64,000 nucleotides of DNA from an uncultured bacterium (GTDB lineage: Bacteria > Fidelibacterota > Marinisomatia > Marinisomatales > UBA1611). Numbering within the stretch: the first letter of the stretch is position 1; every line of letters begins with the position of its first letter. Below are positions 2,022 to 16,056 of this stretch, in pieces. The notes under the pieces are model-generated. The model did no database searches, was not told the DNA's origin, and saw nothing but the letters and a program-made list of their open reading frames with translations. A program made the position numbers and the translations under genes. The stretch lies in contig CBFIBM010000001.1 in assembly GCA_965660855.1 (NCBI GenBank), positions 256,001 through 320,000 on the forward strand. The letters run 5' to 3'.

Positions 2022-2097
2022 AAATATAGTTGTTAAAATAAGGATTTATTACTATTTTCGGGATATATTTATTTATTCTGTAAGTGTAGGATTTTAG

Positions 2098-3231
2098 ATG
2101 AAAATACTTTTGTTAATTTTATTGTTAATGTCAAAAATTCAAGGACAGAAACTAGATGCAATTGACATTAATTTAAGAAACCTTAATGATGTCTTAGAAA
2201 CTGCACAAAGATCTTCTCAAAAAGTATTTGTTGACGATTTTACAGGCCTTTTGTGACCATACTGTCCCTCTGCGAGTTTCGCAATTTCAGAAATGTTAGA
2301 TTTATATCCAGAAACTTTGATTAGTGTCGAGTGGCACAGCTCAGGTTTTACTCCAGGAAATTCAGATTTTGATATACCAGCATATTCTACCAGGGCAGCG
2401 TTGTACAATGTAGGAGGTATTCCTCATACTCAATGGAATGGCGTTGTTTCAACTGTTGGTGGGTATCCAAATGGTAACTGGCAAGCCTTTATTGGAGAAT
2501 TTACAAATACCTATAATAGTATGGTTGGAGAAGAAACTCCATACAATATTGACATAAACGGTTACGCGGGTAATACTGTGAATTACGATGTTACGATTTC
2601 AATGGATTCTGATATGAGTAGCTCAAACCAGAAAGTTGATGTCTTCCTTGCTGAAGATAATATATGGTCTTATTGGAGCGGCGCAAGTTCATATCATAAT
2701 GCAAGATTTGTAGCAAGGGAATGGCTTTCTTCGGAGTATCTGAGTATCAGCAGTGCCGGCCAGAGTGAAACTTTTTCTGGTTCATTTGAATACAATGGAA
2801 ATTGGAATAGTGATAGCCTTTTTTTAATTGCTATTGTTCAAAACTATTCATCAAAACAAATTTATCAAGCCTCAAAAGTTAATATAAATGATATGGATCC
2901 GGATATTGATGATGATGGTATTTTGAATAATACTGATAATTGTATTGAAGATTACAATCCTCAGCAAGAAGATATTGATAACGATCAAATAGGTGATGCT
3001 TGCGATCCATGTAATAATTTAATTTATACTCTAGGCAACCCAAATGGTGATACAAATATCAATGGAGATCCCCTCATTGACATCATGGATGTCTTAACCC
3101 TTGTAGATTATCTTGCATTTGATCAAAATGAAAATATTTGCCAGGAACCAACTCTAAATATAAATCAAGATAATCATGTTAATATCGTTGATGTAATAAA
3201 TCTTGTTCAACTGATTCTTAATGGTGCATAA
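2098..3231 (+). CDS. Putative selenoprotein: Omp28-like thioredoxin-fold exported protein (UxxC) with TSP3-like repeats and C-terminal dockerin-like domain
   Basis: ATG 2098 gives MKILLLILLLMSKIQGQ...KVFVDDFTGLL-TGA(2254-2256)-PYCPSASFAISE, continuing in frame into the 2293..3231 ORF. The motif matches the Omp28-type 'v.vedFTg.wC.yCP', and 'YNVGGIPH' is the cis-Pro loop. The tail has DIDDDGILNNTDNC..CDPC and duplicated D/N-x-N-x-D..I.D dockerin loops. Confidence 0.85.
2257..2290 (+). promoter_or_regulatory. Candidate bacterial SECIS hairpin
   Basis: TGCGA(2271-2275)-GTT-TCGCA(2279-2283) is a perfect stem with a G-first loop 19 nt after the in-frame TGA. Confidence 0.65.
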
Positions 3232-3733
3232 TTTCTTAATAAAACCACTATTAAAATTTGTTTTTTTTAGTTCAGTTTTCTTTTCTTTTGCTCTTGCAAA
3301 AAAAGTTCCTGATTTAAATATTAAACTTATTGATGGATCAAAGACTACAATTCTAGAGCTTGCAGAAGATGGTCCATTATTAATTGATTTTTGGGCAACT
3401 TGGTGTGTTCCATGCAAAAAAGTGATGAAACATTTAAATCAATTTCATCTAAAATATGATGATCAAAATTTTAAGGTTTTAATGATTAATACAGATAGTC
3501 CTAGGTCTTTTGGAAAAGTAAAATCATTTATAAGATCTCAAGATTATAAATTTTATGTAGGGTTAGATCCTAACCAAATTACAGCCAGAAAACTTGATGG
3601 ATTAGTTATGCCTACTCTTATTTTAGTTGATGCAGGTGGGGAAATAACTTGGAGACATCAAGGTTACTCACCAGGTGATGAAAAAGAAATTGAAAATCAG
3701 ATTGAATTATTACTAAGTAAAAATACTAAATGA
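3221..3733 (+). CDS. TlpA/ResA-family thiol:disulfide oxidoreductase (exported)
   Basis: Signal peptide, LIDFWATWCVPCKK motif and MPTLILVD cis-Pro loop. Confidence 0.9.
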   Translation: MVHNFLIKPLLKFVFFSSVFFSFALAKKVPDLNIKLIDGSKTTILELAEDGPLLIDFWATWCVPCKKVMKHLNQFHLKYDDQNFKVLMINTDSPRSFGKVKSFIRSQDYKFYVGLDPNQITARKLDGLVMPTLILVDAGGEITWRHQGYSPGDEKEIENQIELLLSKNTK

Positions 3734-5682
3734 TATCAAAATTATTTAGGCTTAGTAAGCTTATTTTTCTTTTATGTTTTTTAACAGCTCAAGACTTTAG
3801 TTATAACGCCTCTATTAATTCAAGTTTTGGAAATAGTTATGATTTTTATTCTTTTTCAGAAAATAGGATAAACATCAACTTATTTTACAATAACTTTCAA
3901 AGTTGGGTTCAATATGAATATTCAAACCCACCCGACGTAGGTTTTCCAATTAATGATATAAGAAAATTTCGATTTGAATATCAAAATAAAGCTTTAAATA
4001 TTAAACTTGGCGACATTTATGAAATTTGGGGTAGGGGTTTAGTTCTTAATCAATTCGATGATCAACTTTTAGATTTTGACAATGGAATAAGAGGACTTTT
4101 TATAAATTATGGTAAAGGTCCGTTTAGTTTAACACACATAAATGGTAATGCAAATTTATGGAGTTACGGTCTTGATTTAAGAAAACCATATTATAATGAT
4201 AAGCATAATGTTATAGCAAACAGACTCCTTTATGAAAAAGGTTCCACAGTATTAGGCTTGACACATTTGATTTCTAGTGAAGAGCATTCCAAGTTAAATT
4301 TAGATGTAGTAGATGTGGGGCATACAATTAAGGGTATTTACGGTGATTATTCTTCTAATAATTTTGATATTTTTTTAGAATATGTAGATAAGGTCTCAAT
4401 CTCTAAAAATATAGTTTCAAATAATTTTCCAAATGATACCCTCAAAACAGGGTATGGTTTATATGGTAATTTGAATTTTTACTTAGGATCTTGGGGTCTA
4501 ACTACCGAGTATAAAAATTATTCTTTTGATTCGTTTATTAGTGATAAAACTCCAGATGATTATGGAAATCAAATTCAATTTCAACAAATGCCAACTTTAG
4601 GTAAGGAGCATAATTCAACGCTACTTGGTAGACTTAGCCATTATTATAATTTTAATGATGAAAGAGGTGTACAGTATGAGTTAAATGGATCATTTATAGG
4701 ACTGTCAATTAACCTTCAATATGCTCATTTAAGTAGGAATGAACAATGGTTTTCACAAAATGGCCCGTTTTCTTGGACAAATAAGATTTTGAGATCAAAA
4801 TTACCTAGTACAAAAATTAATACTAACCCATACTATGAAAACTTCCAAGAATTAAGTGGCTATCTGTTTGAAGATAAACTCTTTTTTAAGATTGGCAGGG
4901 GAGCAAATAAAGAAGTTTTAGGAACAAATTGGTTTTTTAATGGGGTTCAAACAGACACCTCTTATAGTTTGAGTTTTGCTTATGATACAACCTATTCGCC
5001 ATATGCTCCTGATTATCCAATAATTACGGTTGATAGCCTATATGACACATCTTCTGTTAGTTATAATATAAAAGCAGAGAATTGGAGAGAGAGTCAATCT
5101 TTTACGATTCCTGTTGAATTAAATTATACTATGTCAAGTGGATACTCCTTCGGAGTTGGTTTTCAGTACCAGGAGAGAACTTTAAATGAAAAAAGAAAAG
5201 GAAATTCTCATTCATATAATGTTGGAAATTCAAAATGGAATTTAGTTAATCCAGATGATTCAGACTATAAATCTACTTTAATTATATCTCAACTCTCTAT
5301 AAATGGTAAACCTAGGAAAATCCAACATAATCGTCTATTATCATTTACTTTAAGTAAAGCGCAGAAATGGTCAGTTACTATTACACAAGATTGGACTGAT
5401 GCATATGAGGTCCAATCATCTGATCCTTATTATAATCCATTAGAGGCAATAGTATATGGTGATTTAAAATATTTTACTGGGAAAAGAAATAATGTTTCTC
5501 CTCCTTCATTTATTCAAAATAAATGGGTTTCGGCAGAAGTATCATATAACATTAATTCATCTCAAAAAGTTTCAATTTTTTATGGATCTATTCAAGGTGG
5601 CTTATTCTGTAATAATGGAATATGCAGAATTATACCTGCATTCAATGATGGTATAAAAGTTGGCTATTATTTCAGTTTATAA
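3730..5682 (+). CDS. DUF6029-like outer-membrane beta-barrel protein with C-terminal CxxGxC motif (copy 1)
   Basis: Signal peptide, GDIYEIWGRGLVLN, QQMPTLGKEH, and C-terminal GGLFCNNGICRIIPAFNDG..YYFSL. ATGA-coupled to the TlpA gene. Family recalled from motif, not searched. Confidence 0.7.
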   Translation: MISKLFRLSKLIFLLCFLTAQDFSYNASINSSFGNSYDFYSFSENRININLFYNNFQSWVQYEYSNPPDVGFPINDIRKFRFEYQNKALNIKLGDIYEIWGRGLVLNQFDDQLLDFDNGIRGLFINYGKGPFSLTHINGNANLWSYGLDLRKPYYNDKHNVIANRLLYEKGSTVLGLTHLISSEEHSKLNLDVVDVGHTIKGIYGDYSSNNFDIFLEYVDKVSISKNIVSNNFPNDTLKTGYGLYGNLNFYLGSWGLTTEYKNYSFDSFISDKTPDDYGNQIQFQQMPTLGKEHNSTLLGRLSHYYNFNDERGVQYELNGSFIGLSINLQYAHLSRNEQWFSQNGPFSWTNKILRSKLPSTKINTNPYYENFQELSGYLFEDKLFFKIGRGANKEVLGTNWFFNGVQTDTSYSLSFAYDTTYSPYAPDYPIITVDSLYDTSSVSYNIKAENWRESQSFTIPVELNYTMSSGYSFGVGFQYQERTLNEKRKGNSHSYNVGNSKWNLVNPDDSDYKSTLIISQLSINGKPRKIQHNRLLSFTLSKAQKWSVTITQDWTDAYEVQSSDPYYNPLEAIVYGDLKYFTGKRNNVSPPSFIQNKWVSAEVSYNINSSQKVSIFYGSIQGGLFCNNGICRIIPAFNDGIKVGYYFSL

Positions 5683-5760
5683 AACCATTAATTGTTTCTT
5701 TTTATTAATTATCTTTTGAATTTTTCAGTTCCAAAAGTATATCGTGATATTTAAAATTAT

Positions 5761-6645
5761 GTGAAGAATTATATCTTAAGCATTCCTTTAGCAAAATTAA
5801 TTTTTATTCTATCTATTATTTTATCAAATACTATTTATCCTCAAATAGATATAGGTTCAATATCTCCTAATTTCACTGCTCCTGTATGCGCAAACGGTGA
5901 TCTCGAGTTATTCAACTTGTACCAACAAACTAATGGCAGTTTTAATGGTGGTGATTATAAAGTAGTATGGATCAATTTATTTACTTCTTGGTGACCAAGT
6001 TGCCAAGTGGAGGCTCCACTATCAGAAGAAATATGGCAAGAATATTTAAGCGGAGGGGAAGAAAAATTAGTTGTTATGGCAGCTGGGTTTGATTGGCATC
6101 AGCCTTATAGCTGTGAAGAATGGTCAACTGCATTTGGTATAACATACCTAATGGTAGATGATACAAATAATGAAGCATGGAATATTTATGGTGATGGCTA
6201 TATTCCGCATAATGTAGTGTTAGATCATAACATGCAGGTTCTATATACAAGTTCAGGATTTAACTCAAATGAAATAAAAGATGCAATCGATCTCGGCCTA
6301 TCTTATGTTCCAAGAGATTTAGATTTAGATGGAATTAATGATAACATAGATAACTGTGATGATATTTATAATCCTAATCAAGAGGATGTTGATGTAGATG
6401 GCATCGGTGATTTATGTGATAATTGCGATAACTATAATGTATTTATTTCTGGAAATACTGATGGTGGTTTAGTAAATGGAATTCCCATTTTAGATATTTT
6501 TGATGTGTTGAACCTAGTTGATATTGTTTTATTGGATGAATCTGGTACCTGTAGATCTGATATCTCAGATTTGAATTCAGATAATAATATTAATATTATT
6601 GATGTGATATTTCTTGTACAGGGGTTGTTAAATGGTGAATTTTAA
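5761..6645 (+). CDS. Putative selenoprotein: exported redoxin (UxxC) + TSP3-like repeats + dockerin-like domain
   Basis: ORFs 5761..5994 and 6007..6645 are in the same frame and joined by a single TGA (5992-5994), reading INLFTSW-U-PSCQVEAP. Paralogues at 13932 and 15002 read FTSWCGFC and FTSWCAYC. Confidence 0.9.
5995..6039 (+). promoter_or_regulatory. Candidate bacterial SECIS hairpin
   Basis: AGTGGA(6006-6011)-GGC-TCCACT(6015-6020) stem with the loop 17 nt after the TGA. Possible lower stem TTGCCA(6000-6005)/TGGCAA(6034-6039). Confidence 0.7.
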
Positions 6646-6757
6646 ATTCAAAAACTTAGTTAAGATTTAAACAATAAAAAATATTACAATTTAACATTCA
6701 TAAATGTTGATGTTTTTAAAGATTTAGATTAGAATTTATATATATATTTCTACATTC

Positions 6758-9700
6758 ATGAATATTTTTAAAAAAATGACCTTCTTCCTTCTGTTTTTTT
6801 CCTTAATTAAAGGTCAAGGTGATTATTCATTTAAAAATATTTCAGTAGAAGATGGACTTGCTGAAAGTACTGTAAAGATAATCTATGAGTCAAAACAAGG
6901 TTTTTTATTTTTTGGAACTGAAAATGGTCTTGATATTTTTGATGGTTATAAATTTAAAAACTATCATATGGATTCATTCGATAATGAATCAATTCTTGGA
7001 AATAAAGTTTCAGCTATTTACGAATCAAGTAATAATTTGATCTGGGTAGGAAGTGAGCTAGGATTTAGTTCATTTAATCCTTCAACACAAAAATTCAAAA
7101 GACCGTCATTAAGTAATAATAATATTACAAATCCAGAAAAAATTACAGAAGATGAAAGTGGGAAAATCTGGATTAAAGAGGCTCAATCTAGCCGTTTATT
7201 TAAATATGATTTTAATAAAGATATTCTTGAATGTATTTCATGTGATCAAATGAGCATCCTTTTTAATCAAACCATAAATATTCTACACAAATCGAATAAA
7301 GGTGCTTTGTGGATTGGTACTGATAAAGGTCTTTATTTTTATGATATTAATGATAAATCTATCAGGCCGATTGAATCAAAATATTCCTTAAGCATTAATG
7401 AGCCATATTATATTACATCAATTGAAAATGGATCAGATTCCATTTTATGGATAGGAACAAAACAAGGTCTTATCAAAATTGAAGAAAATAATAAGAGTCA
7501 AATTAAGATTTTTAAGAATTCGGAGGTTGAAAATTCTATCGTTTCTAACAAGATAAATGATATTAAATGGGATAATCTTAGGAATGAGTTATGGATTTCT
7601 ACTGTGGATGGAATTTCAAAATATTCACCTGAACTAAATTCTTTTTCTAACATTCAAGTAGGTCCGTTTGCTAATAGCATAATAGAAAATGATGTTACGG
7701 ATATTTTGATTGCTGAAAAGTCTGGAACTTTATGGTTTAAAACCAGAAACCGCTTTGGAATAAATAGTTTTAAAGCAACATTCAATGAATTTGAGGGGCC
7801 GGATACTTCAATTATGCATTTTGAACATGATCCTATTGATCCATTTTCTATTGCTGACAATGATATAACAAATTTTATTGAGGATAGAGCTGGCCACGTC
7901 TGGATAGGAACACGACAAAATGGGATAAGCTTTTATTCATTTTTGAAGCCTAAATTCTCATTGCTTGAATATGATCAAGAAAATGAATGGGGCCTCAAAA
8001 GTAATAAGATTTATTCAATTACAACCGATTCTTATGGTATGATGTGGGTTGCAACAGGGTTTGGATTAGAAAATATTTCTTCGGATGGTATTAGAGATTT
8101 TGAATTTGAAAAATCTTTTATTGAATCCAACCATGTCATGGATTTAGAGTTAGTAAATGATCAATATTTATGGGCGGCAACTGAAAATGGAATTCTTAGA
8201 ATTGATGTATTATCAGAAGAAATTATTCGATTTAACACCTCTCAAAATGTTAATAAAAAAAGATTAATTTCTGATAATTTTATTAGAGACCTGCTTATAA
8301 CAAAAAATGGTTCTATTTGGGCGGGGACAAAATCAGGAATTACAATAATAGATACAGTTGATTTAAGTGCTGTCAGTTTTAGCTCAGATTTTACTGCTAG
8401 GGTATTATACCAAGACGAAAGTGAAAATATATGGATAGGAACAGATTATAATGGATTATATCAAATACCATATGAAATTATTTCTGATCTAAAAAAAGAA
8501 GATATTTTTGAAGTAGAGGGTCATGTTTTTGACTCAGAGTTTTCTGATGGTCTATCATCTTCACAAATAACCTCTATAACTCAAGATACGACTGGTGTTT
8601 TATGGGTTGGTACAGCTAGTGGTTTAAATAAGTATATTGAAAGTGAAGATACCTTCTATCATTATTTCATGAAAGATGGTCTACCTAGTAACTATATTAC
8701 GGGTGTTATTGTAGATCAAAGTAATAACCTGTGGATAAGCTCTAAGAACGGTATTTCTTTCTTTAATCAGAAAGACTCTTCTTTTATAAATTATGGGGTT
8801 TCCGATGGAATAGGGAATATTGATTTTCATCAACATTCTTTTGAAAAAAGTATTGATGGAAACATATATTTTGGTGGGCCAAAAGGAATAACTAAAGTAA
8901 ATCCCTCAAATTTACAATATAATGAATACAAACCTCCTTGTTCAATTCTACGCATTAAAAAAACACTTTATGATGGATCTATTACTGAAGTTTTTCCTCA
9001 AAAAAGTTCGAAACTAGAAATTCAAAAGATTAATATAAATCATAAAGTAAAATCATTCTCAATCGATTTTGTTGCTCTGAATTATCATAAAACTATAAAG
9101 AATGAATATAGATATAAACTTCAACCTTTTGATAGGAATTGGGTAGAATCGGGGAATATTAAATTTGCATCTTACAATAATTTAGGTAGAGGAGAGTATA
9201 CCTTTTTTGTGCAAGGATCTAACGATGATGGATTATGGAGTCAGTCTGCTGTTTTAGATTTTAAATTTATTCCTCATCCTCTTTTAAGTTATGGTGCTTT
9301 TGGAGTCTATCTTGCACTAATTATATTTGGTGTATACTGGCTAGTTAAACAAAGAATATTAAAACAGCAATCTGAGGCTGATGAAAAGAGAAGAGCCGAA
9401 GAATTAGAGCAAGCTCGGGAATTCCAGATGTCACTAATACCTCAAAATCCTCCTTCTATCAGCGGATTTGAATTTGCTTTGCATATGAAAACATCTACGG
9501 AGGTTGGTGGTGATTATTATGATTTTTTTCCTCAAAAAAATAATGTTCTTTATGTAGTTTGTGGTGACGCCACTGGGCACGGTTTAAATGCTGGTATGAT
9601 GGTTTCAATTACAAAAGCAGGATTATTCGGATCAGACTTTAGTAATCCAGGTATTACAACTACTAGGTTAAATCAAACAATAAAAGCTATTGATCTTGGA

Positions 9701-10105
9701 ACAACAAGGATGTCTTTGAATATGGCTAAGTTTGAAAATGAATCCTTTGAGTTTACATCAGCTGGTATGCCTCCTGCATATTTATTTCGTGGTGAAACAA
9801 AGGTTGTAGAGGAAATTTTAATTCCTGGTTTGCCTCTGGGGTCTATGAAAAATGCTACATTTGATTCTGAGATATTTGAATTTAAAATAGATGATGCGTT
9901 AATCTTAATTTCAGATGGACTTCCTGAATGTGTTGACCATAAAGATGAAATGTTAGATTATGATGCAGTAAAGAACTGTATTGAAAAAAATGGGCATAAA
10001 TCAGCAAATGGCATTAAAGATGCCTTGATAAAATTGGGTGATGACTGGATGGACGGTCTAATGAATGATGATGATATAACATTGGTAATTATAAAGAGGA
10101 AATAG
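6758..10105 (+). CDS. Membrane sensor: two-component-type beta-propeller repeats + Y_Y_Y domain + TM + SpoIIE/PP2C Ser/Thr phosphatase
   Basis: Repeated 'LWIGT..GL' propeller motifs, YRYKL..FD..W/ASYNNL.RGEYTF (Y_Y_Y), a TM near residue 850, then EVGGDYYDF, GDATGHG, LISDGL and DDDITLV PP2C motifs. Confidence 0.9.
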   Translation: MNIFKKMTFFLLFFSLIKGQGDYSFKNISVEDGLAESTVKIIYESKQGFLFFGTENGLDIFDGYKFKNYHMDSFDNESILGNKVSAIYESSNNLIWVGSELGFSSFNPSTQKFKRPSLSNNNITNPEKITEDESGKIWIKEAQSSRLFKYDFNKDILECISCDQMSILFNQTINILHKSNKGALWIGTDKGLYFYDINDKSIRPIESKYSLSINEPYYITSIENGSDSILWIGTKQGLIKIEENNKSQIKIFKNSEVENSIVSNKINDIKWDNLRNELWISTVDGISKYSPELNSFSNIQVGPFANSIIENDVTDILIAEKSGTLWFKTRNRFGINSFKATFNEFEGPDTSIMHFEHDPIDPFSIADNDITNFIEDRAGHVWIGTRQNGISFYSFLKPKFSLLEYDQENEWGLKSNKIYSITTDSYGMMWVATGFGLENISSDGIRDFEFEKSFIESNHVMDLELVNDQYLWAATENGILRIDVLSEEIIRFNTSQNVNKKRLISDNFIRDLLITKNGSIWAGTKSGITIIDTVDLSAVSFSSDFTARVLYQDESENIWIGTDYNGLYQIPYEIISDLKKEDIFEVEGHVFDSEFSDGLSSSQITSITQDTTGVLWVGTASGLNKYIESEDTFYHYFMKDGLPSNYITGVIVDQSNNLWISSKNGISFFNQKDSSFINYGVSDGIGNIDFHQHSFEKSIDGNIYFGGPKGITKVNPSNLQYNEYKPPCSILRIKKTLYDGSITEVFPQKSSKLEIQKININHKVKSFSIDFVALNYHKTIKNEYRYKLQPFDRNWVESGNIKFASYNNLGRGEYTFFVQGSNDDGLWSQSAVLDFKFIPHPLLSYGAFGVYLALIIFGVYWLVKQRILKQQSEADEKRRAEELEQAREFQMSLIPQNPPSISGFEFALHMKTSTEVGGDYYDFFPQKNNVLYVVCGDATGHGLNAGMMVSITKAGLFGSDFSNPGITTTRLNQTIKAIDLGTTRMSLNMAKFENESFEFTSAGMPPAYLFRGETKVVEEILIPGLPLGSMKNATFDSEIFEFKIDDALILISDGLPECVDHKDEMLDYDAVKNCIEKNGHKSANGIKDALIKLGDDWMDGLMNDDDITLVIIKRK

Positions 10106-10116
10106 GTTAAACTCTC

Positions 10117-10683
10117 ATGATAAAAAATACAATTAGAATAATCTATTTGCTTATGTTTCTTTCACTTGGATATTCTCAAGAAAAAATACCAAACTTGAGA
10201 CTTAAAATGTTGAATGGAAAATATGCAAAAGTAAATGATTTTTTAAAAGATGGACCAATGATTATAGATTTTTGGGCTACTTGGTGTGAGCCATGTAAGA
10301 AACAGATGAAATATCTTAATATATTTAATAATCATTTTAAGGAAACTGGATTTAAAGTACTTGCTGTTAACACTGATACACCTAAAAGTATGAGTAAGGT
10401 TAAATCTTATGTCAGAACAAAAAAGTTTGAGTTTGACGTTGCAGTGGACCCGAATAGTCAGGTTAAAAAGAAAATGAAGGTTTTGCAAATGCCTACAACT
10501 ATTTTAGTTGATAAAACTGGACAAATAGTTTTTAGACATCAAGGATATTTACCTGGCGATGAACATGATATTCTTCAAGCTATTTATGGTTTAATGGATA
10601 AAAACAATACTAGTTATGAAAAACTTGATTTGAATAAGAACAATAAAAAACAAATTAAATCCGGTGCTGAAGTTGATTTTTAA
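10117..10683 (+). CDS. TlpA/ResA-family thiol:disulfide oxidoreductase (copy 2)
   Basis: Signal peptide, IIDFWATWCEPCKK and MPTTILVD. Clear paralogue of 3221..3733. Confidence 0.9.
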   Translation: MIKNTIRIIYLLMFLSLGYSQEKIPNLRLKMLNGKYAKVNDFLKDGPMIIDFWATWCEPCKKQMKYLNIFNNHFKETGFKVLAVNTDTPKSMSKVKSYVRTKKFEFDVAVDPNSQVKKKMKVLQMPTTILVDKTGQIVFRHQGYLPGDEHDILQAIYGLMDKNNTSYEKLDLNKNNKKQIKSGAEVDF

Positions 10684-12946
10684 TAAGCAAATAATTGTAT
10701 CATTCATATTGATACTTAGTAATTCAGATTTATTTTCCCAAATAACAGCTGGTGGGAACTCTATTCTAAAATTTGGCGAGAGTAAAAATGAATTTCACTA
10801 TTCAGAGGTTTTGCTGAATATGAACTTATCAAATGATTATTTGGAGACTTGGTTTCAATTCGAATACAGCAAACCACCTGAGATTGGGATGAGTATTAAT
10901 GGTCTGAGAAAATTTAGGATTGACTATTCTGATGGCCCTTTCGAATTATCTGTTGGAGATATATATAAAATTTGGGGGAGGGGGTTAATATTGAACCAGT
11001 TTGATGATCAGGATGTAAATCTTGATAATGGTTATAGAGGATTAAGTTTCAGTATAATAAAAGATAACTATACCATTGATTTAATATCTGGAATTTCAAA
11101 TATACATAGAATTAGTCAAGATTACTGGCAAAATATAGATCAAGAATCAAGAAAGCCAAATCATTTATCAAAACATTCTATGTTTGGTAGTGATTTAGAG
11201 TTTTTTCAAGGACCTTTTTCTCTAGGTTTATCCTTTCTTCAAAGTAGAGAGAATCATCCCATCAATAATCCGATCACGATGATGGCAGATAGTATTAATG
11301 TAATTCATCGAATAAATGGTTTAAGAGCCGGATATGAAGGCGGGCGTCTCGCCTCCTACTTAGAATTATCTGGAAAAAATACGCTATTATCTCAATCCGA
11401 AAGTCAAATATATAAGGAAAATTTTAATCCTTATAATGGCTTCAGTCTTTTTGGAAATATTAATTATTATTTTCAAAGTCAGCTTCTAGACGGATGGTCA
11501 TTAACAATGGAGTATAAAAACTACAATACAACAAAATTAAATACATCAGATAAAGACAATTTTGTTAAAAATTATGATATGAATTTAATTTTTACTCAAC
11601 CCCCGACTGTTTTAAGGGAACATAGCAGTGTATTTTTAGCTAGACTTATTCCTCAGGTAAATTTCAGCGATGAAGTAGGTTATCAATTTTCTCTTGTTGG
11701 TCCTATTATGGGGATAGGGTATTTTACTCTCAACTATCAAGCCGCAAGTAGAACAAACTTATGGGGTAAAACATACCCAGATACTGTAAATGCTATATTA
11801 TCTACTAAATGGGAAAGTGATAGTGCAGTTACCGTATTGCCATTCAGTGAAAAATCCGGACTGCCATACAATGAACTTTATCTTGAAATGGAAGGTTACA
11901 TAAAAAATATTAGGTATCAATTTGGCTTTGGTATCACAAACAAAATACCTGAATATCATTCGTCGTATAATAGTGGAAAGAATGGTGTCTGGGATAATGG
12001 TGAAGCGTTTGATGATTTAAATGGCAATAATATTTATGATATTGGAGAAAATTTTACTGATCTTTACAGTATAGTAAATGAAAAAATTGATAATAAAACT
12101 GTTACAGCCATTACAATACCTTCTCTTCTAAATTATAATTTAGGAAATGGGTGGAGTATTGATTTAAAATATGAATTTCAAAAGATTAAAAGTGGTACAA
12201 AATATTATAATTCATTGTCCTCTGATGAAGTATTCTATGATAGTAATGGAAATGGTGTTTGGGATATTGCAGAGTTATTTGAAGATAGTAATGGTGATGG
12301 TATTTGGAACCAAGCTGAAGAGACATGGTATGATTTATGGCAAAGTGGTTTAATACCCGATGAACAATTATACTACTATGATACTGACGGCGATGGTTTA
12401 TTTTCGGAGGGAGAATATTTTACTGATGCTGATGGAAATGGCATGTGGAATTCATCAGAAAACTTAATTGATGAAGATGGTGATGGAATATGGGATGATT
12501 CAGAGTATTTGGAGGATCTAAATAATGATGGAGTCTGGACAAAAAGTGGAGTGTATGAAGATAGGTATCAATCTAATTTTTATTCAAATGATTCAAAAAG
12601 TGGGTTGAGTATTCCTGAAGATTTTCAAAATAATCATCTGATATCACTCGGAATAGGAAAATCGCCTTATTGGTCACTATCTTTAACGGTTGAATCAAGT
12701 TCAACCTATGAATATGGTCCATTAAAAAATAGTGTTGTTAATCCTCTAGAGAGTTTCTTAGGTAATATTATTGATTTAAATAATAAGTGGATTGCTTTAG
12801 AATTTATGGTGAATATAAATTCAAATACTAGGCTCGATTTAATGTACGGTACGCAAAGGGGAGGGATTATTTGCAGTAATGGAATTTGTAGGTATGTTGA
12901 ACCTTTCGATGATGGATTTAAATTAGCGTTATCAACAGTATTTTAA
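10664..12946 (+). CDS. DUF6029-like outer-membrane protein (copy 2) with inserted acidic DxxGxGxWD repeats
   Basis: Shares GDIYKIWGRGLILNQFDDQ, QPPTVLREH and C-terminal GGIICSNGICRYVEPFDDG with 3730..5682, and ends in Phe. Confidence 0.7.
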   Translation: MLKLIFNKQIIVSFILILSNSDLFSQITAGGNSILKFGESKNEFHYSEVLLNMNLSNDYLETWFQFEYSKPPEIGMSINGLRKFRIDYSDGPFELSVGDIYKIWGRGLILNQFDDQDVNLDNGYRGLSFSIIKDNYTIDLISGISNIHRISQDYWQNIDQESRKPNHLSKHSMFGSDLEFFQGPFSLGLSFLQSRENHPINNPITMMADSINVIHRINGLRAGYEGGRLASYLELSGKNTLLSQSESQIYKENFNPYNGFSLFGNINYYFQSQLLDGWSLTMEYKNYNTTKLNTSDKDNFVKNYDMNLIFTQPPTVLREHSSVFLARLIPQVNFSDEVGYQFSLVGPIMGIGYFTLNYQAASRTNLWGKTYPDTVNAILSTKWESDSAVTVLPFSEKSGLPYNELYLEMEGYIKNIRYQFGFGITNKIPEYHSSYNSGKNGVWDNGEAFDDLNGNNIYDIGENFTDLYSIVNEKIDNKTVTAITIPSLLNYNLGNGWSIDLKYEFQKIKSGTKYYNSLSSDEVFYDSNGNGVWDIAELFEDSNGDGIWNQAEETWYDLWQSGLIPDEQLYYYDTDGDGLFSEGEYFTDADGNGMWNSSENLIDEDGDGIWDDSEYLEDLNNDGVWTKSGVYEDRYQSNFYSNDSKSGLSIPEDFQNNHLISLGIGKSPYWSLSLTVESSSTYEYGPLKNSVVNPLESFLGNIIDLNNKWIALEFMVNINSNTRLDLMYGTQRGGIICSNGICRYVEPFDDGFKLALSTVF
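12238..12545 (+). repeat. Coding repeat: ~6 acidic D-x-[ND]-G-[DN]-G-x-W/F units (putative Ca-binding loops)
   Basis: DSNGNGVWD, DSNGDGIWN, DTDGDGLFS, DADGNGMWN, DEDGDGIWD, DLNNDGVWT. Confidence 0.8.
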
Positions 12947-13015
12947 TCTAGCTTTTAATGAAAAATATCAATAAATTGAAAATAATTACATAACTTCAAT
13001 TAAAACAAAACTTAC

Positions 13016-13909
13016 ATGAAAAAATTCATTTTAAAGTTTTTTATTTTATTTTCTATAACATTTCCCTCATTTGTTATATGTCAGGGTCAAATTATACAAG
13101 ATTTTTCCTACCCAATTTGTGCTAATGGTGATGGTGAAACAGTTTTAAATTTTTATGAATCATTCAACGGATCAGTAAACAATTGTGAGTATAAAGTAGT
13201 TCTTGCTACACTTTTCACCTCCTGGTGACCATCCTGTATGACGGAGGCTCCGGTTCTAGAAGAAATATTTAACACCTACAAAGATCAAGGATTAGAAGTT
13301 GTTGCATTTGGAGCCGACTGGTATCCTGATGGACCCTATACTTGTGAAGGGTGGGATCAACAATTTAATCTTTCTTACCCAATACTTGATTTTGAGACAG
13401 GATTAGAAAATTGGTATTGGGAGTCAGCTCCGTATGATTTATACCAGCCCGAGTTAGGTTGGGGGTTACCTTTTAATGTAATAATAAATCATGAGATGGA
13501 AGTTTTATGGGGTGCAGCAGCCAACTTTGAGGGTGATGTAATGGCTGAGGCTATAGGTGTTATTGAATCAGCTCTCCAAGCGTTGAATGAAGAATTTCCC
13601 GATGGTCCAGGGGATGATGATGGAGATGGAATAGCAAATGGTTGTGATCCTTGTCCAGAATCTCATTTACACCATCCTGGAAATTTTGATTTTTCTCAGG
13701 TTTATTCACATTTTGATAATGGTGCAGTCTTTGTACCATCTGTAGATATTTTTGATTTAATACTATTTTCAGATTATATAATGGATGGTGGCTACCTAAC
13801 TGATTGTATCTTAGAGGCGCACGATATTACCGGGGATGGTTATGTCAATCCTTTCGATGTTATAGCATTAGCTCAATTAATTCTTGGAAATGATTGGGGT
13901 TTAAATTAG
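13016..13909 (+). CDS. Putative selenoprotein: exported redoxin (UxxC) + short TSP3-like motif + dockerin-like domain
   Basis: ORFs 13016..13228 and 13238..13909 are in the same frame and joined by one TGA (13226-13228), reading ATLFTSW-U-PSCMTEAP. Homologous throughout to 5761..6645. Confidence 0.9.
13229..13260 (+). promoter_or_regulatory. Candidate bacterial SECIS hairpin
   Basis: CGGA(13242-13245)-GGC-TCCG(13249-13252), with the same GGC loop and 17-nt spacing as at 6006-6020. Confidence 0.65.
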
Positions 13910-13931
13910 CCTGATTATTTTCTTCTTATAA

Positions 13932-14855
13932 ATGAAATTATTTTATCATATTTTTCAGAAGAGTATTATTATTTTTGTTTTAATTTATACTTCTACCACT
14001 TCAGAAATGCAAGGTCAGGTAGCTGTAGGTGACACTATAAACCCTTCTCAATTAAGTTTACCAATTTGCGCTAATCAAGAACCCTTTGGCCCTTCAGAGC
14101 AATTTTTTGATATTTCGATTTATAATAACCCAGATCAAGATTCACAATCAAAAGTAATTTTACTTTCTATTTTTACATCATGGTGCGGATTTTGTCAAAC
14201 TGAAGCTACACACTTACAAGATTTACATACTGAATTTGCCGATGATGGATTGTTAGTTGTTTCAGCTGGAGGAGATTGGGGTTTTCCATATGATTGTGAG
14301 GGTTGGTCTAATGAATTTGATTTAAGTTATCCAATATTAGATTTTATGAATCCCTTTAATCCTAATTGGGGAGAAGCGCCATTAATGACCTATTTAGGAG
14401 TAGCTGCAATACCCTTTAATGTAATTATAGATCATAGGAACATAGTCTCAAATATTATAATAGGATATAATGAGGAAATATTGAACCTAGCTATTGAAGA
14501 TGCTCTTGAAGCAATGATTCAAGATAGTGATGGTGATGGAATTAATTCTGAAGCAGATAACTGTCCATCAATATTCAACCCAGGTCAATCTGATTTTGAC
14601 GGTGATGGCATAGGAGATGTCTGCGATGCTTGTGATAATCTTAATATATTTGTTAACGGAAATCTTAATGGTACATTAAATCTTGATCAAGAACCAACCA
14701 TTGATATTCTAGACTTATTGTTACTGGCCGACTTCCTTGAGGGATTACCAGATCAAAATATCTGTCATGAGGCTGCCTCTGATATTAATGAGGATTCTAA
14801 TATAAATTTACTTGATGTATTTTCACTTGCCTATCAAATTACTGGGCAAAATTAA
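13932..14855 (+). CDS. Exported redoxin (CxxC, Cys paralogue of the selenoproteins) + TSP3-like repeats + dockerin-like domain
   Basis: Signal peptide, PICAN, IFTSWCGFCQTEA, IPFNVIID, DSDGDGINSEADNCP..CDAC and a dockerin-like tail. Confidence 0.88.
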   Translation: MKLFYHIFQKSIIIFVLIYTSTTSEMQGQVAVGDTINPSQLSLPICANQEPFGPSEQFFDISIYNNPDQDSQSKVILLSIFTSWCGFCQTEATHLQDLHTEFADDGLLVVSAGGDWGFPYDCEGWSNEFDLSYPILDFMNPFNPNWGEAPLMTYLGVAAIPFNVIIDHRNIVSNIIIGYNEEILNLAIEDALEAMIQDSDGDGINSEADNCPSIFNPGQSDFDGDGIGDVCDACDNLNIFVNGNLNGTLNLDQEPTIDILDLLLLADFLEGLPDQNICHEAASDINEDSNINLLDVFSLAYQITGQN

Positions 14856-15001
14856 AATAGGATAAAGGCCTTGAGCAAAGTTATACTTTTATCGTTGGTT
14901 ATTTATTATCAAATTTTGAACCTATATAAAAAGGTATCTATTTTGTATAATCAGGTTCTATTTACAAAATTTTAACAAAAATTATTTTAAAAAGATCAGT
15001 T

Positions 15002-15916
15002 TTGTTAAAAAAAAATTTTAAAAAAATAAATTACCTCAAAGTATTTACAATACTTTTATTGCAATCATTATTATATAGTCAAATTGCAATTGGTGATACT
15101 GTCTTTAATCTGCAATTACCAATATGTGCTAATTCTGATCCTGATATTCACGAACAGCAATATTTTGATATAAATGATTATAATGGTTTTCCCGAAAGTA
15201 CTATCAGCCCAAGGGTAATTCTTCTTGCAATCTTTACTTCATGGTGTGCGTATTGTCAAACTGAAGCGTTCCTTTTAGAAGATTTACATGAGGAGTATAT
15301 TGATGATGGATTATTGGTCCTTTCTGCTGGTGGTGATTGGGGCTTCCCATATGATTGTAGTGGTTGGGCAAATTCATTTAATTTAACTCATCCAATATTA
15401 AATTTTATGACAACTAATGTGGAAAGTTGGGAAGATGCTCAATTGATAAACTATTTGGGAGTTGGTATTGTACCACATGCTGTTGTAATTGATCATCGAA
15501 ATATTCTTTCAAACACCATTGTGGGTTATAATCCTAATGCTTTGAATCAAGCTGTTGAAAGTGCGCTTGAAACAATGGCTCAAGACCTTGATGGTGATGG
15601 AGTTTTATTTGATGATGATAATTGTCCTTCAATTCATAACCCAGAACAAATAGATATTGACAATGATAACCTTGGTGATGAATGTGATTTATGTGATAAT
15701 CTTAATAATTTTGTAATTGGCAATCTAAATGGTACACTAGATCAATTTCAGCAAGCAACCATTGATATTTTTGATTTATTGTTATTAACTGATTTTTTAG
15801 ATAATTCTTACGAGAATAATGTATGCTCTAACGCTGTATCCGATATTAATGGTGATAATTCTATAGATCTAATTGACGTATTTACGCTTGCTTATATTAT
15901 TTCAGAACAAAATTAA
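15002..15916 (+). CDS. Exported redoxin (CxxC) + TSP3-like repeats + dockerin-like domain; tandem paralogue of 13932..14855
   Basis: TTG start, PICAN, IFTSWCAYCQTEA, shared SAGGDWGFPYDC, DLDGDGVLFDDDNCP..CDLC. Confidence 0.88.
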   Translation: MLKKNFKKINYLKVFTILLLQSLLYSQIAIGDTVFNLQLPICANSDPDIHEQQYFDINDYNGFPESTISPRVILLAIFTSWCAYCQTEAFLLEDLHEEYIDDGLLVLSAGGDWGFPYDCSGWANSFNLTHPILNFMTTNVESWEDAQLINYLGVGIVPHAVVIDHRNILSNTIVGYNPNALNQAVESALETMAQDLDGDGVLFDDDNCPSIHNPEQIDIDNDNLGDECDLCDNLNNFVIGNLNGTLDQFQQATIDIFDLLLLTDFLDNSYENNVCSNAVSDINGDNSIDLIDVFTLAYIISEQN

Positions 15917-15974
15917 AAAAAAATAAATTTTTTGAAAGGAAGTCTGTAATTTCAATCCTATTCAAAGAGTATAT

Positions 15975-16048
15975 GCGCCCGTAGCTCAACTGGATAGAGT
16001 GTCTGGCTACGGACCAGAAGGTTGGGGGTTCGAATCCTCCCGGGCGTA
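15975..16048 (+). tRNA. tRNA-Arg (anticodon ACG, read as ICG); CCA not encoded
   Basis: Acceptor GCGCCCG/CGGGCGT, D-arm TAGCTCAACTGGATAGAG, anticodon arm TCTGG-CTACGGA-CCAGA (ACG at 16009-16011), T-arm GGGGG-TTCGAAT-CCTCC. Confidence 0.97.
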
Positions 16049-16056
16049 CTGACGAC

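What the first reader, a model, noticed from the sequence alone, without database searches (positions are those of the whole stretch)
5992..13260. SECIS-like hairpins with a compensatory base pair, absent or weak in Cys paralogues
Seen: both UPSC genes have the core GGA-GGC-TCC with the loop exactly 17 nt after the UGA. The next pair is T6008-A6018 in one and C13242-G13252 in the other, the latter involving the synonymous change CCA->CCG. The Omp28-like gene has an analogous TGCGA-GTT-TCGCA with a G-first 3-nt loop at 19 nt. All three have CCA directly after UGA. The Cys paralogues encode the same E-A with ACT GAA GCT ACA or ACT GAA GCG TTC, giving no stem or only 3 bp. Known: bacterial SECIS elements lie just 3' of the UGA with a G early in the apical loop. 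Inference: a compact, possibly lineage-specific SECIS form.
Basis: partly seen in the sequence, partly recalled or inferred. Interest (0 to 1): 0.75.

Follow-up and report, generated by a model that had tools for sequence, protein, structure and literature searches.

The report
Selenocysteine-insertion hairpins in three marine redox genes
Three secreted thiol-redox genes of a marine Marinimicrobia-like bacterium carry an in-frame UGA followed by a small conserved RNA hairpin that fits the textbook bacterial selenocysteine-insertion signal, so the finding is real but of a known kind.

Summary
Three genes (2098-3231, 5761-6645, 13016-13909) have an in-frame TGA at the first Cys position of a UxxC motif. 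A hairpin loop starts 19, 17 and 17 nt after the TGA.

Folding energy alone does not support the hairpins. They are weak (-3.9, -5.7, -2.2 kcal/mol), and looser hairpins of this sort are common at ordinary CxxC sites.

Comparative data do support them. In 44 related loci:
- 53 of 57 TGA-bearing homologues of the thioredoxin-like gene keep the exact 9-mer GGAGGCUCC, against their own codon bias.
- The next pair covaries: C-G 42, U-A 9, G-C 3.
- All 29 Omp28-like homologues keep GCGA-GUU-UCGC, and the outer pair covaries between two synonymous sites.
- All 3 Cys-coding homologues lack the hairpin.

The "new compact, lineage-specific SECIS form" reading is not supported. The loops A-GGC-U and A-GUU-U and the 17-19 nt spacing match the published bacterial SECIS consensus. 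The 9-mer follows the gene family across records labelled as several phyla. Both protein families were already listed as selenoproteins in 2008 (Prx-like 1/3 and GOS_C, now NF045500).

SelB binding and Sec insertion are inferred, not tested.

The parts
2098..3231 (+). Omp28-related selenoprotein gene (377 aa; motif UPYC; signal-peptide-like N-terminus; TSP3/dockerin-like C-terminus)
   Evidence: NCBIfam NF045500 Omp28_seleno scores 562.6 bits against a cut-off of 200. The review PMC13188914 lists this model as 'Hypothetical protein GOS_C'. Translation with TGA=U.
2254..2256 (+). In-frame UGA read as Sec (U53)
   Evidence: All 29 homologues in the window and loci have TGA at this aligned codon.
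2271..2283 (+). SECIS hairpin: 5-bp stem UGCGA/UCGCA, loop GUU, 19 nt after the UGA
   Evidence: 100% paired in 28 distinct sequences. Outer pair: CG 18, UA 9, UG 1. RNAalifold predicts only this helix. Model R2, built without the window, scores 56.4 bits, E 8e-19. Isolated stem -3.9 kcal/mol.
5761..6645 (+). Thioredoxin-fold (Redoxin/AhpC-TSA-like) selenoprotein gene (294 aa; FTSWUPSC; secreted; TSP3/dockerin-like C-terminus)
   Evidence: Pfam Redoxin 31 bits against a cut-off of 26.6. Translation. Homologues. Sequences with the same motif are listed under 'Prx-like 1' and 'Prx-like 3' in GOS Dataset S1.
5992..5994 (+). In-frame UGA read as Sec (U78)
   Evidence: 57 of 60 family members in the window and loci have TGA at this aligned codon.
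6006..6020 (+). SECIS hairpin: 6-bp stem AGUGGA/UCCACU, loop GGC, 17 nt after the UGA
   Evidence: present in the best fold, -12.1 kcal/mol for 60 nt; isolated stem -5.7; R1 37.2 bits, E 5e-7, model built without the window.
13016..13909 (+). Second thioredoxin-fold selenoprotein gene (297 aa; FTSWUPSC)
   Evidence: Translation. Pfam AhpC-TSA 26.2 bits against 26, Thioredoxin 23.6 against 23.5. Nearest relatives L009_17566, L010_18077 and L017_17630.
13226..13228 (+). In-frame UGA read as Sec (U71)
13242..13252 (+). SECIS hairpin: 4-bp stem CGGA/UCCG, loop GGC, 17 nt after the UGA. The weakest of the three.
   Evidence: -2.2 kcal/mol at 37 C. Absent from the best fold of the 60 nt. R1 nevertheless scores it 39.8 bits, E 1e-7.
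13932..14855 (+). Cys paralogue (FTSWCGFCQTEAT; TGC at 14184), no hairpin
   Evidence: no hairpin found. No R1 match in either Cys paralogue gene at E up to 10.
15002..15916 (+). Cys paralogue (FTSWCAYCQTEAF; TGT at 15245), no equivalent hairpin
   Evidence: only an unrelated -0.7 kcal/mol stem. No R1 match in either Cys paralogue gene at E up to 10.

Best explanation
The three hairpins are bacterial SECIS elements inside the coding sequence of three secreted thiol-redox selenoprotein genes.

Proposed mechanism, inferred from the E. coli paradigm:
- When the ribosome puts the UGA in its A site, the small hairpin begins 11-14 nt downstream, with its loop 17-19 nt downstream, so it sits at the mRNA entrance.
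- Its apical G-G/U nucleotides bind SelB carrying GTP and Sec-tRNA(Sec).
- SelB delivers selenocysteine in competition with release factor 2.

What is shown here: the in-frame UGA sits at the UxxC active site, the hairpin has a fixed position, it covaries, and it is maintained against codon bias.

What is inferred: SelB binding and actual Sec insertion.

In the thioredoxin-like family the element is written over the residues x-E-A-P. Glu (GA-) and Pro (CC-) supply part of the stem. The RNA fixes the free positions: GAG rather than GAA, GCU for Ala, a G at the third position of the preceding codon, and the third base of the Pro codon matched to the second base of the preceding codon.
For: 1. 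Position and recoding.
- Only 3 in-frame TGAs occur in 41 + strand ORFs, all at UxxC. TGA ends 6 of these 41 ORFs, so there is no global reassignment.
- 57 of 60 and 29 of 29 homologues have TGA at the same aligned codon.

2. Sequence conservation beyond the protein.
- 53 of 57 TGA forms carry GGAGGCTCC.
- The hairpin Glu is GAG in 56 of 56, against 29% GAG elsewhere in the same genes. A second conserved Glu 5 codons later is GAA in 44 of 47.
- Ala is GCT in 53 of 55, against 30%. The preceding codon ends in G in 55 of 57, against 13-22%.
- In the Omp28-like family: GCG 25 of 25 against 9.8%, TTC 29 of 29 against 20.6%, AGT 29 of 29 against 26%.

3. Covariation.
- Thioredoxin-like pair 17-27: CG 42, UA 9, GC 3, CU 3.
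- The 7-pair helix is 85.2% paired against 69.9% in shuffles (0 of 500 shuffles reach it). With the 3' partners slid by 1-3 columns it is 21-47% paired.
- Omp28-like pair 18-30: CG 18, UA 9, UG 1, never a mismatch. Both sides are synonymous third positions.
- On protein trees built with the hairpin residues masked, these pair states change at least 6 times and at least 5 times.

4. RNAalifold, given no structure, predicts exactly these helices and nothing else.

5. Covariance models built without the window rows hit the three window sites (39.8, 37.2 and 56.4 bits). Nothing else in the 64 kb scores above 11.2 bits (E 0.67), and neither model matches the Cys paralogues' active-site region at E up to 10 (R2's only hit inside one of those genes is a 5.0-bit chance-level match about 375 nt downstream, E 4.9).

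6. Fit to the published bSECIS model (loop, G position, spacing), quoted.

7. Both protein families are catalogued selenoproteins.
Against: - The hairpins are thermodynamically weak. As isolated stems at 37 C they score -5.7, -2.2 and -3.9 kcal/mol, below the -7.5 kcal/mol threshold of the published search model.
- The hairpin of gene 13016-13909 is not in that region's best fold.
- By energy alone they cannot be told from chance: 17 of 173 ordinary CxxC sites have a qualifying hairpin at -3 kcal/mol or better.
- One TGA-bearing homologue (L008, TGA at 17529, UPYCEADAP) has no qualifying hairpin.
- Only 3 Cys-coding homologues were available, so 'absent in Cys forms' rests on a small sample.
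- No selA, selB, selD or tRNA-Sec gene lies in the window or in the 44 loci' tRNA scans. The organism's Sec machinery is therefore unverified here.
- No Rfam SECIS family matches.
- Part of the core (G19-C25 and half of two other pairs) is dictated by the Glu and Pro codons themselves.
Confidence: 0.85

Rival explanations
1. The hairpin is a real conserved RNA structure but has a job other than recruiting SelB. Examples: a ribosome pause site, a binding site for the anti-Shine-Dalgarno sequence (the motif contains GGAGG), or an mRNA-stability element that indirectly favours read-through.
For: GGAGG lies inside the invariant 9-mer of the thioredoxin-like family. The stems are too weak to be obviously stable on their own.
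Against: The Omp28-like hairpin GCGAGUUUCGC has no Shine-Dalgarno-like sequence, yet it shows the same architecture, the same position and covariation. Covariation outside GGAGG (pairs 17-27 and 16-28) argues for a stem, not a linear motif. The element is present only with UGA and lost in the Cys forms. The loops match the SelB-type consensus.
Confidence: 0.07
2. There is no RNA function. The nucleotide conservation is a by-product of protein constraints, codon-pair preferences or shared ancestry of the sequences.
For: E and A are invariant in both Sec and Cys forms, and P in all Sec forms of the protein alignments. Related sequences can beat shuffle controls without any structure, as the tool's own caveat says.
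Against: Synonymous choices are fixed against the genes' own codon usage, while proteins are only 28-64% identical. Two purely synonymous sites 12 nt apart covary without a single mismatch in 28 distinct sequences. Pair states change at least 5-6 times on the trees. The Cys paralogues keep E-A but use GAA and lose the stem.
Confidence: 0.03
3. The UGA is not read as Sec. Either the genes are pseudogenes or split genes, or UGA is read through as Trp, Cys or Gly without SelB.
For: Public gene calls treat them as split. Of the 120 listed homologues, 58 start at xEAP just after the TGA and 9 carry W at the site.
Against: The TGA is conserved at the catalytic position of the UxxC motif in 57 of 60 and 29 of 29 homologues, and both flanks are conserved as protein. 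TGA is a normal stop for 6 of 41 ORFs in the window. Both families are curated selenoproteins.
Confidence: 0.03

Closest known systems
Bacterial SECIS consensus model (bSECISearch model of Zhang and Gladyshev, as restated in PMC13188914, text and Fig. 2 legend; passages seen)
   Same: Lies immediately 3' of the Sec-UGA inside the ORF. Small apical loop with G then G or U (pattern N1-G-[G|U]-N-N2 with N1-N2 paired; here A-GGC-U and A-GUU-U). Spacing within 16-37 nt (here 17 and 19). Upper stem within 4-16 bp (here 4, 5 and 6).
   Different: These sit at the minimal end of every range. The isolated stems do not reach the model's energy threshold of -7.5 kcal/mol. The top of the hairpin is fixed at sequence level across the whole gene family.
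E. coli fdhF SECIS (details recalled, not from a call)
   Same: The same logic: a hairpin about 11 nt after the UGA, with loop G and U nucleotides contacted by SelB. The loop begins about 18 nt after the UGA, against 17-19 nt here.
   Different: As recalled, fdhF has a 4-nt GGUC loop, a bulged U in the upper stem and a long lower stem that includes the UGA. The elements here have a 3-nt loop (5-nt if the closing A-U pair is open), no conserved bulge and no conserved lower stem.
Predicted SECIS of 'Hypothetical protein GOS_C' (Zhang and Gladyshev 2008, PMC2398784, Fig. 7; only the legend was visible to me)
   Same: The same protein family as window gene 2098-3231. NF045500 is listed as GOS_C. 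UPYCPSASFA strings occur 22 times in Dataset S2. A SECIS was drawn there for one representative.
   Different: I could not see the drawn structure, so identity with GCGA-GUU-UCGC is unverified.
Rfam curated SECIS families
   Same: The same functional class.
   Different: No match at gathering score over the whole window, or at E up to 10 over 1900-16000.

Membership tests
Bacterial SECIS element (published consensus model, PMC13188914 Fig. 2 legend) | Located in the coding region immediately downstream of an in-frame Sec-UGA | tested here: met
   TGA at 2254, 5992 and 13226 in open frames. The hairpins begin 14, 11 and 13 nt after the TGA.
Bacterial SECIS element (published consensus model, PMC13188914 Fig. 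2 legend) | Apical loop of 3-9 nt on an upper stem of 4-16 bp | tested here: met
   The loop is 3 nt in all three. The stems are 5, 6 and 4 bp.
Bacterial SECIS element (published consensus model, PMC13188914 Fig. 2 legend) | G in the first two loop positions; usual pattern N1-G-[G|U]-N-N2 | tested here: met
   A-GGC-U in 53 of 57 thioredoxin-like forms, A-GGC-A in L038, and A-GUU-U in 29 of 29 Omp28-like forms.
Bacterial SECIS element (published consensus model, PMC13188914 Fig. 2 legend) | 16-37 nt between the UGA and the apical loop | tested here: met
   17 nt in 50 of the 56 thioredoxin-like forms with a qualifying hairpin, 16 nt in the other 6, and 19 nt in 29 of 29 Omp28-like forms.
Bacterial SECIS element (published consensus model, PMC13188914 Fig. 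2 legend) | Minimum free energy of -7.5 kcal/mol or lower (a search-program cut-off) | tested here: inconclusive
   Isolated stems: -5.7, -2.2 and -3.9 kcal/mol at 37 C, and -9.5, -4.7 and -7.0 at 10 C. Best folds of the 60 nt: -12.1 (contains the hairpin), -6.6 (does not) and -7.3 (contains it). I do not know over what span the published program computes the energy.
Bacterial SECIS element (published consensus model, PMC13188914 Fig. 2 legend) | Structure conserved with compensatory changes among orthologues, and absent when Cys replaces Sec | tested here: met
   Cys forms: 3 of 3 lack it. The Cys sample is small.
Bacterial SECIS element (published consensus model, PMC13188914 Fig. 2 legend) | Binds SelB and directs Sec insertion | not testable with these tools
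   Needs binding and reporter assays.
Bacterial SECIS element (published consensus model, PMC13188914 Fig. 2 legend) | The organism encodes selA, selB, selC (tRNA-Sec) and selD | tested here: inconclusive
   None of these lies in the 64 kb window, and no tRNA-Sec lies in the 44 loci. The rest of the genome was not available.
Omp28-related selenoprotein, NCBIfam NF045500 (= GOS_C) | Score above the model's curated cut-off, with Sec at the UxxC motif | tested here: met
   562.6 bits against 200 over residues 6-375. The motif is UPYC.
Prx-like / Redoxin-type UxxC selenoproteins ('Prx-like 1' and 'Prx-like 3' of the GOS selenoproteome) | Thioredoxin-fold domain with Sec at the first position of UxxC; sequence likeness to listed members | tested here: met
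   Pfam Redoxin 31 bits against 26.6 (P0001) and AhpC-TSA 26.2 against 26 (P0002). 'SWUPSC' occurs 19 times in Dataset S1, in sequences such as ...FTSWUPSCQVEAPQTEDIWQ.... This is a match by motif and visible text, not by a formal alignment. No dedicated NCBIfam model reaches its cut-off.
Rfam SECIS families | Match to a curated covariance model | tested here: not met
   No SECIS family was reported at gathering score, or at E up to 10.

The most novel reading that the evidence does not exclude
SelB of Marinimicrobia and allied lineages may recognise a minimal mini-hairpin defined by sequence, G-A-[G-(G/U)-N]-U-C, that works with as few as 4 bp (about -2 kcal/mol at 37 C). Recognition would then depend on sequence more than on stem stability. 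The E-x-P motif found in some TlpA/ResA-type thioredoxin folds would pre-adapt the site, because GA- and CC- already supply half the stem. That would help explain why this fold so often carries Sec, and why energy-thresholded SECIS searches and gene callers miss these genes.
Probability: 0.25. Interest if true: 0.45.

Novelty: new member of a known kind. Interest (0 to 1): 0.3.

Why it matters
1. Annotation. None of the 120 listed database homologues of the thioredoxin-like gene is read correctly. 58 are ORFs starting at xEAP just after the UGA, 9 carry W at the Sec site, and 53 start further downstream. No NCBIfam model covers the family above its cut-off. The models R1 and R2, or the plain motifs UGA-N14-GGAGGCUCC and UGA-N15-[UC]G[CU]GAGUUUCGC[AG], would flag these genes directly.

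2. Method. This is a clean natural example of a coding-region RNA signal holding synonymous sites fixed across very divergent proteins, and relaxing when Sec is replaced by Cys. It also shows that folding energy alone would have missed, or failed to distinguish, a real element.

3. Biology. A cluster of secreted selenoproteins in abundant ocean bacteria bears on marine selenium use. This was already noted by the 2008 GOS study.

Tried and rejected
- Folding alone gave no significant z-scores, so I dropped it as evidence.
- Rfam at gathering score and at E up to 10 gave no SECIS family.
- The search for related loci with the 19-row alignment A1, which included the Cys paralogues, failed because no stretch was conserved enough. 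I reran it with the 15-row Sec-form alignment A2. That used the single genome scan, and the patterns chosen (GYIPHN.., EAP..E.I.Q) favour Sec forms. This is one reason why only 3 Cys forms were recovered.
- I screened all in-frame TGAs with at least 45 open codons on both sides in the window and loci (423 candidates), then filtered for redox motifs. Almost all were noise, mainly antisense or high-GC frames. One plausible extra candidate remained (L033 12396-12788).
- An extended lower stem, as seen in the best fold of window 5992-6051, is not conserved. RNAalifold keeps only the apical helix.
- 'CCA after UGA' as a signal was rejected.
- Searches for Sec machinery or tRNA-Sec in the window and loci found nothing.
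- Literature:
  - 'Omp28' plus 'selenoprotein' gave 0 papers.
  - 'Marinimicrobia' plus 'selenocysteine' gave 5 papers. Of the 4 listed, I opened only PMC8318568, which mentions Marinimicrobia only as a genome bin; the other three were seen as listings only.
  - The nucleotide motifs gave 331 papers. The 15 listed are unrelated uses, and none holds a motif together with 'SECIS'.


Full report
**What is in the window.**

The window has 32% G+C. Its closest relatives are Marinimicrobia (SAR406, Neomarinimicrobiota, Fidelibacterota) assemblies.

Reading TGA as Sec joins three pairs of adjacent ORFs into whole genes:
- 2098-3231, motif UPYC, TGA at 2254.
- 5761-6645, motif FTSWUPSC, TGA at 5992.
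- 13016-13909, motif FTSWUPSC, TGA at 13226.

These are the only in-frame TGAs in 41 + strand ORFs. TGA is the ordinary stop of 6 of these ORFs, so the code is not reassigned.

All three proteins start with a signal-peptide-like segment and end in a TSP3/dockerin-like module.

Two more paralogues, 13932-14855 (CGFC) and 15002-15916 (CAYC), have Cys at the same position.

**The observation.**

- The first hairpin is longer than stated: A6006-T6020 makes 6 bp.
- The second is 4 bp.
- The Omp28-like one is 5 bp.
- The loops are GGC, GGC and GUU, starting 17, 17 and 19 nt after the UGA.

GGAGGCTCC occurs only at these two places in 64 kb (expected 0.11).

The window on its own gives weak support:
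- RNAfold z-scores are -1.36, +0.77 and -0.37, and the second hairpin is not in its region's best fold.
- The isolated stems are worth only -5.7, -2.2 and -3.9 kcal/mol.
- Of 173 ordinary CxxC sites in long ORFs of the loci, 100 have some hairpin of at least 4 bp with an early loop G at 16-37 nt. 17 of these reach -3 kcal/mol or better.

One compensatory pair between two paralogues was a lead, not a proof.

**Comparative evidence.**

A protein search with the first gene returned 134 hits, of which 120 were listed:
- 58 begin xEAP..., that is, an ORF called from the codon just before the Glu.
- 9 are full length with W at the Sec position.
- None has C or U there.
- 53 start further downstream.

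The family is therefore almost always UGA-bearing and is routinely mis-called.

I mapped the active-site codon in these by tblastn.

Thioredoxin-like family (60 genes: 57 with TGA, 3 with Cys):
- 53 of the 57 have GGAGGCTCC at the same offset.
- L038 has GGAGGCACC, with a compensating 7-bp stem.
- Two tandem genes in a Bacteroidaceae-labelled record (L043, motif E-F-P) have a different hairpin at the same place: CACCG-AGUUUC-CGGUG.
- One gene (L008, TGA at 17529) has no qualifying hairpin.

Omp28-like family (29 genes): all 29 have TGA and G[C/U]GA-GUU-UCGC.

**Covariation.**

In the thioredoxin-like set, the pair next to the core joins the second base of the codon before Glu with the third base of the Pro codon. 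It is C-G in 42 sequences, U-A in 9, G-C in 3 and C/U in 3. The three C/U cases can instead pair as UGAC/GUCA with a bulged U. That is my own reading and was not scored.

Further out, pairs 16-28, 15-29 and 14-30 also show several Watson-Crick types.

The 7-pair helix is 85.2% paired. Shuffles give 69.9% (0 of 500 reach the observed value). Sliding the 3' partners by 1-3 columns gives 21-47%.

In the Omp28-like set all five pairs are formed in all 28 distinct sequences:
- The outer pair, formed by two synonymous third positions, is C-G 18, U-A 9 and U-G 1, with no mismatch.
- The Ala-to-Val variants keep a U-G wobble.

RNAalifold, given no structure, predicts exactly these helices and no other.

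On protein trees built with the hairpin-encoded residues masked, the pair state changes at least 6 times (thioredoxin-like pair 17-27) and at least 5 times (Omp28-like pair 18-30). The signal is therefore not one inherited event. These are 'quick' trees with some long branches.

**Codon control.**

Thioredoxin-like genes:

| Position | At the hairpin | Elsewhere in the same genes |
|---|---|---|
| Glu | GAG 56 of 56 | 29% GAG |
| Ala | GCT 53 of 55 | 30% GCT |
| Preceding codon ends in G | 55 of 57 | 13-22% |

A second conserved Glu five codons later is GAA in 44 of 47.

Omp28-like genes:

| Codon | At the hairpin | Elsewhere in the same genes |
|---|---|---|
| GCG | 25 of 25 | 9.8% |
| TTC | 29 of 29 | 20.6% |
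| AGT | 29 of 29 | 26% |

The proteins are only 28-64% identical to the query, so this is selection on the RNA.

**Cys forms.**

The three Cys-coding homologues lack the element:
- The two window paralogues keep Glu-Ala but write it ACT GAA GCT ACA and ACT GAA GCG TTC, and have lost the Pro.
- L041 (TGT at 1691) has AAG GAG CTG CCT.

On the tree the window's Cys pair sits inside Sec-bearing clades. The join is flagged as a long-branch one. This fits loss of the signal after a Sec-to-Cys change. Three is a small sample.

**Independent detection.**

Covariance models built from the loci alone (46 and 22 distinct rows, no window rows) find the three window sites at 39.8, 37.2 and 56.4 bits. Nothing else in the 64 kb scores better than 11.2 bits (E 0.67). 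The two Cys paralogues' active-site region is not hit by either model at E up to 10; R2's only match inside one of those genes is a 5.0-bit chance-level one (E 4.9) well downstream.

**What it is.**

The best explanation is that these are bacterial SECIS elements. The mechanism is inferred from the E. coli paradigm, which I recall rather than tested here. With the UGA in the A site, the hairpin sits at the mRNA entrance. Its apical G-G/U binds SelB carrying GTP and Sec-tRNA(Sec), which then outcompetes release factor 2.

In the thioredoxin-like family the element is laid over x-E-A-P. Glu (GA-) and Pro (CC-) give part of the stem for free, and the RNA fixes the remaining free positions. An E-x-P motif after CxxC also occurs in some Cys-type relatives in these data (L041: ELP). 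As I recall, it occurs in ResA-type proteins too. This may have pre-adapted the site.

**Comparison with what is known.**

A 2026 review (PMC13188914; passages seen) restates the consensus bSECIS model:
- a loop of 3-9 nt;
- an upper stem of 4-16 bp;
- a G in the first two loop positions, usually as N1-G-[G|U]-N-N2 with N1-N2 paired;
- 16-37 nt from the UGA;
- an MFE of -7.5 kcal/mol or lower.

A-GGC-U and A-GUU-U at 17 and 19 nt fit this exactly. Only the energy cut-off is not clearly met.

The review lists NF045500 as 'Hypothetical protein GOS_C'. The GOS paper (PMC2398784; passages and supplement passages seen) reports:
- 74 Sec and 312 Cys sequences of GOS_C;
- a predicted SECIS drawn in its Fig. 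7 (only the legend was visible to me);
- sequences such as ...FTSWUPSCQVEAPQTEDIWQ... listed under 'Prx-like 1' and 'Prx-like 3' ('SWUPSC' 19 times in Dataset S1).

Both selenoprotein families, and the kind of element, are therefore already known.

The 9-mer is not lineage-specific. It occurs in records labelled Marinimicrobia/Fidelibacterota, CSSED10-310, Calditrichota, KSB1 and Cytophagia.

I found no paper that gives these nucleotide motifs together with SECIS (only 15 of 331 motif-holding papers were listed). 'Omp28' with 'selenoprotein' gave no paper.

**Verdict.**

'SECIS-like' is supported. 'A new compact or lineage-specific form' is not.

The novelty is modest:
- well-supported, minimal-size members of a known class;
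- a useful pair of detection models;
- a clear annotation gap.

**Open points.**
- SelB binding and Sec insertion are untested.
- The Sec machinery of this genome is unseen.
- Few Cys homologues were examined.
- The original bSECISearch paper and the figures of the GOS paper were not read.
- The closed metagenome and viral collections were not searched.

Noticed in passing
window 3221-5682 and 10117-12946: A module occurs twice. It is a TlpA/ResA-like Cys thioredoxin (3221-3733; 10117-10683) directly followed by a large DUF6029 protein (3730-5682, 650 aa; 10664-12946, 760 aa). Both DUF6029 proteins end in a similar ...C.NGICR...F.DG... tail. Each module sits next to a selenoprotein gene, which suggests one extracytoplasmic redox system.
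   Followed up: partly
window 6758-10105: A 1115-aa protein with Reg_prop/Y_Y_Y beta-propeller repeats and a C-terminal SpoIIE/PP2C phosphatase domain lies between the selenoprotein genes. The GOS paper mentions a Prx selenoprotein fused to a distant PP2C-type phosphatase homologue (passage). The adjacency here may reflect the same association.
   Followed up: no
window 17414-30157: A single open reading frame of 4247 aa on the + strand. It was not analysed.
   Followed up: no
L033 12396-12788 (+): A 130-aa secreted Thioredoxin_7 protein (44.2 bits against a cut-off of 27) with an in-frame TGA at WULPC. This is a possible third selenoprotein family in a Marinimicrobia-like MAG. By eye, only a weak AU-rich stem (UUUG/CAAA, 9-nt loop starting GU, 19 nt after the UGA) follows it. 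It is a single sequence, so it is unvalidated.
   Followed up: partly
L008 17529 (+): The one UGA-bearing family member without a qualifying hairpin (UPYCEADAP; GCG GAC GCC CCG). It may use another structure, or it may be decaying.
   Followed up: no
L043 8294 and 10106 (+): Two tandem UGA-bearing paralogues in a Bacteroidaceae-labelled record encode E-F-P instead of E-A-P. At the same offset they carry a different hairpin (CACCG-AGUUUC-CGGUG, -6.1 kcal/mol). Its apical AGUUU resembles the Omp28-like loop.
   Followed up: partly
Protein database hits P0007-P0126: There is systematic mis-annotation. 58 of 120 listed homologues are ORFs starting at xEAP just after the UGA, 9 have W at the Sec site, and none is read as a full-length selenoprotein. 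Sources name them 'hypothetical protein'.
   Followed up: yes
L002, L004, L008, L009, L010, L017 (upstream of the thioredoxin-like gene): Three or four tandem Omp28-related selenoprotein paralogues lie in a row in several related genomes, each with its own UGA and hairpin. The window has one.
   Followed up: partly
window 15975-16049 and many loci: A tRNA-Arg(ACG) gene lies just downstream of the thioredoxin-like gene cluster in the window and in many loci (conserved synteny). The two Cys paralogues sit between the second selenoprotein gene and this tRNA only in the window.
   Followed up: no
window 6009-6013 and 13243-13247: The invariant hairpin core contains GGAGG, a Shine-Dalgarno-like sequence. 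It is treated as a rival reading and is probably incidental, because the Omp28-like hairpin has none.
   Followed up: partly
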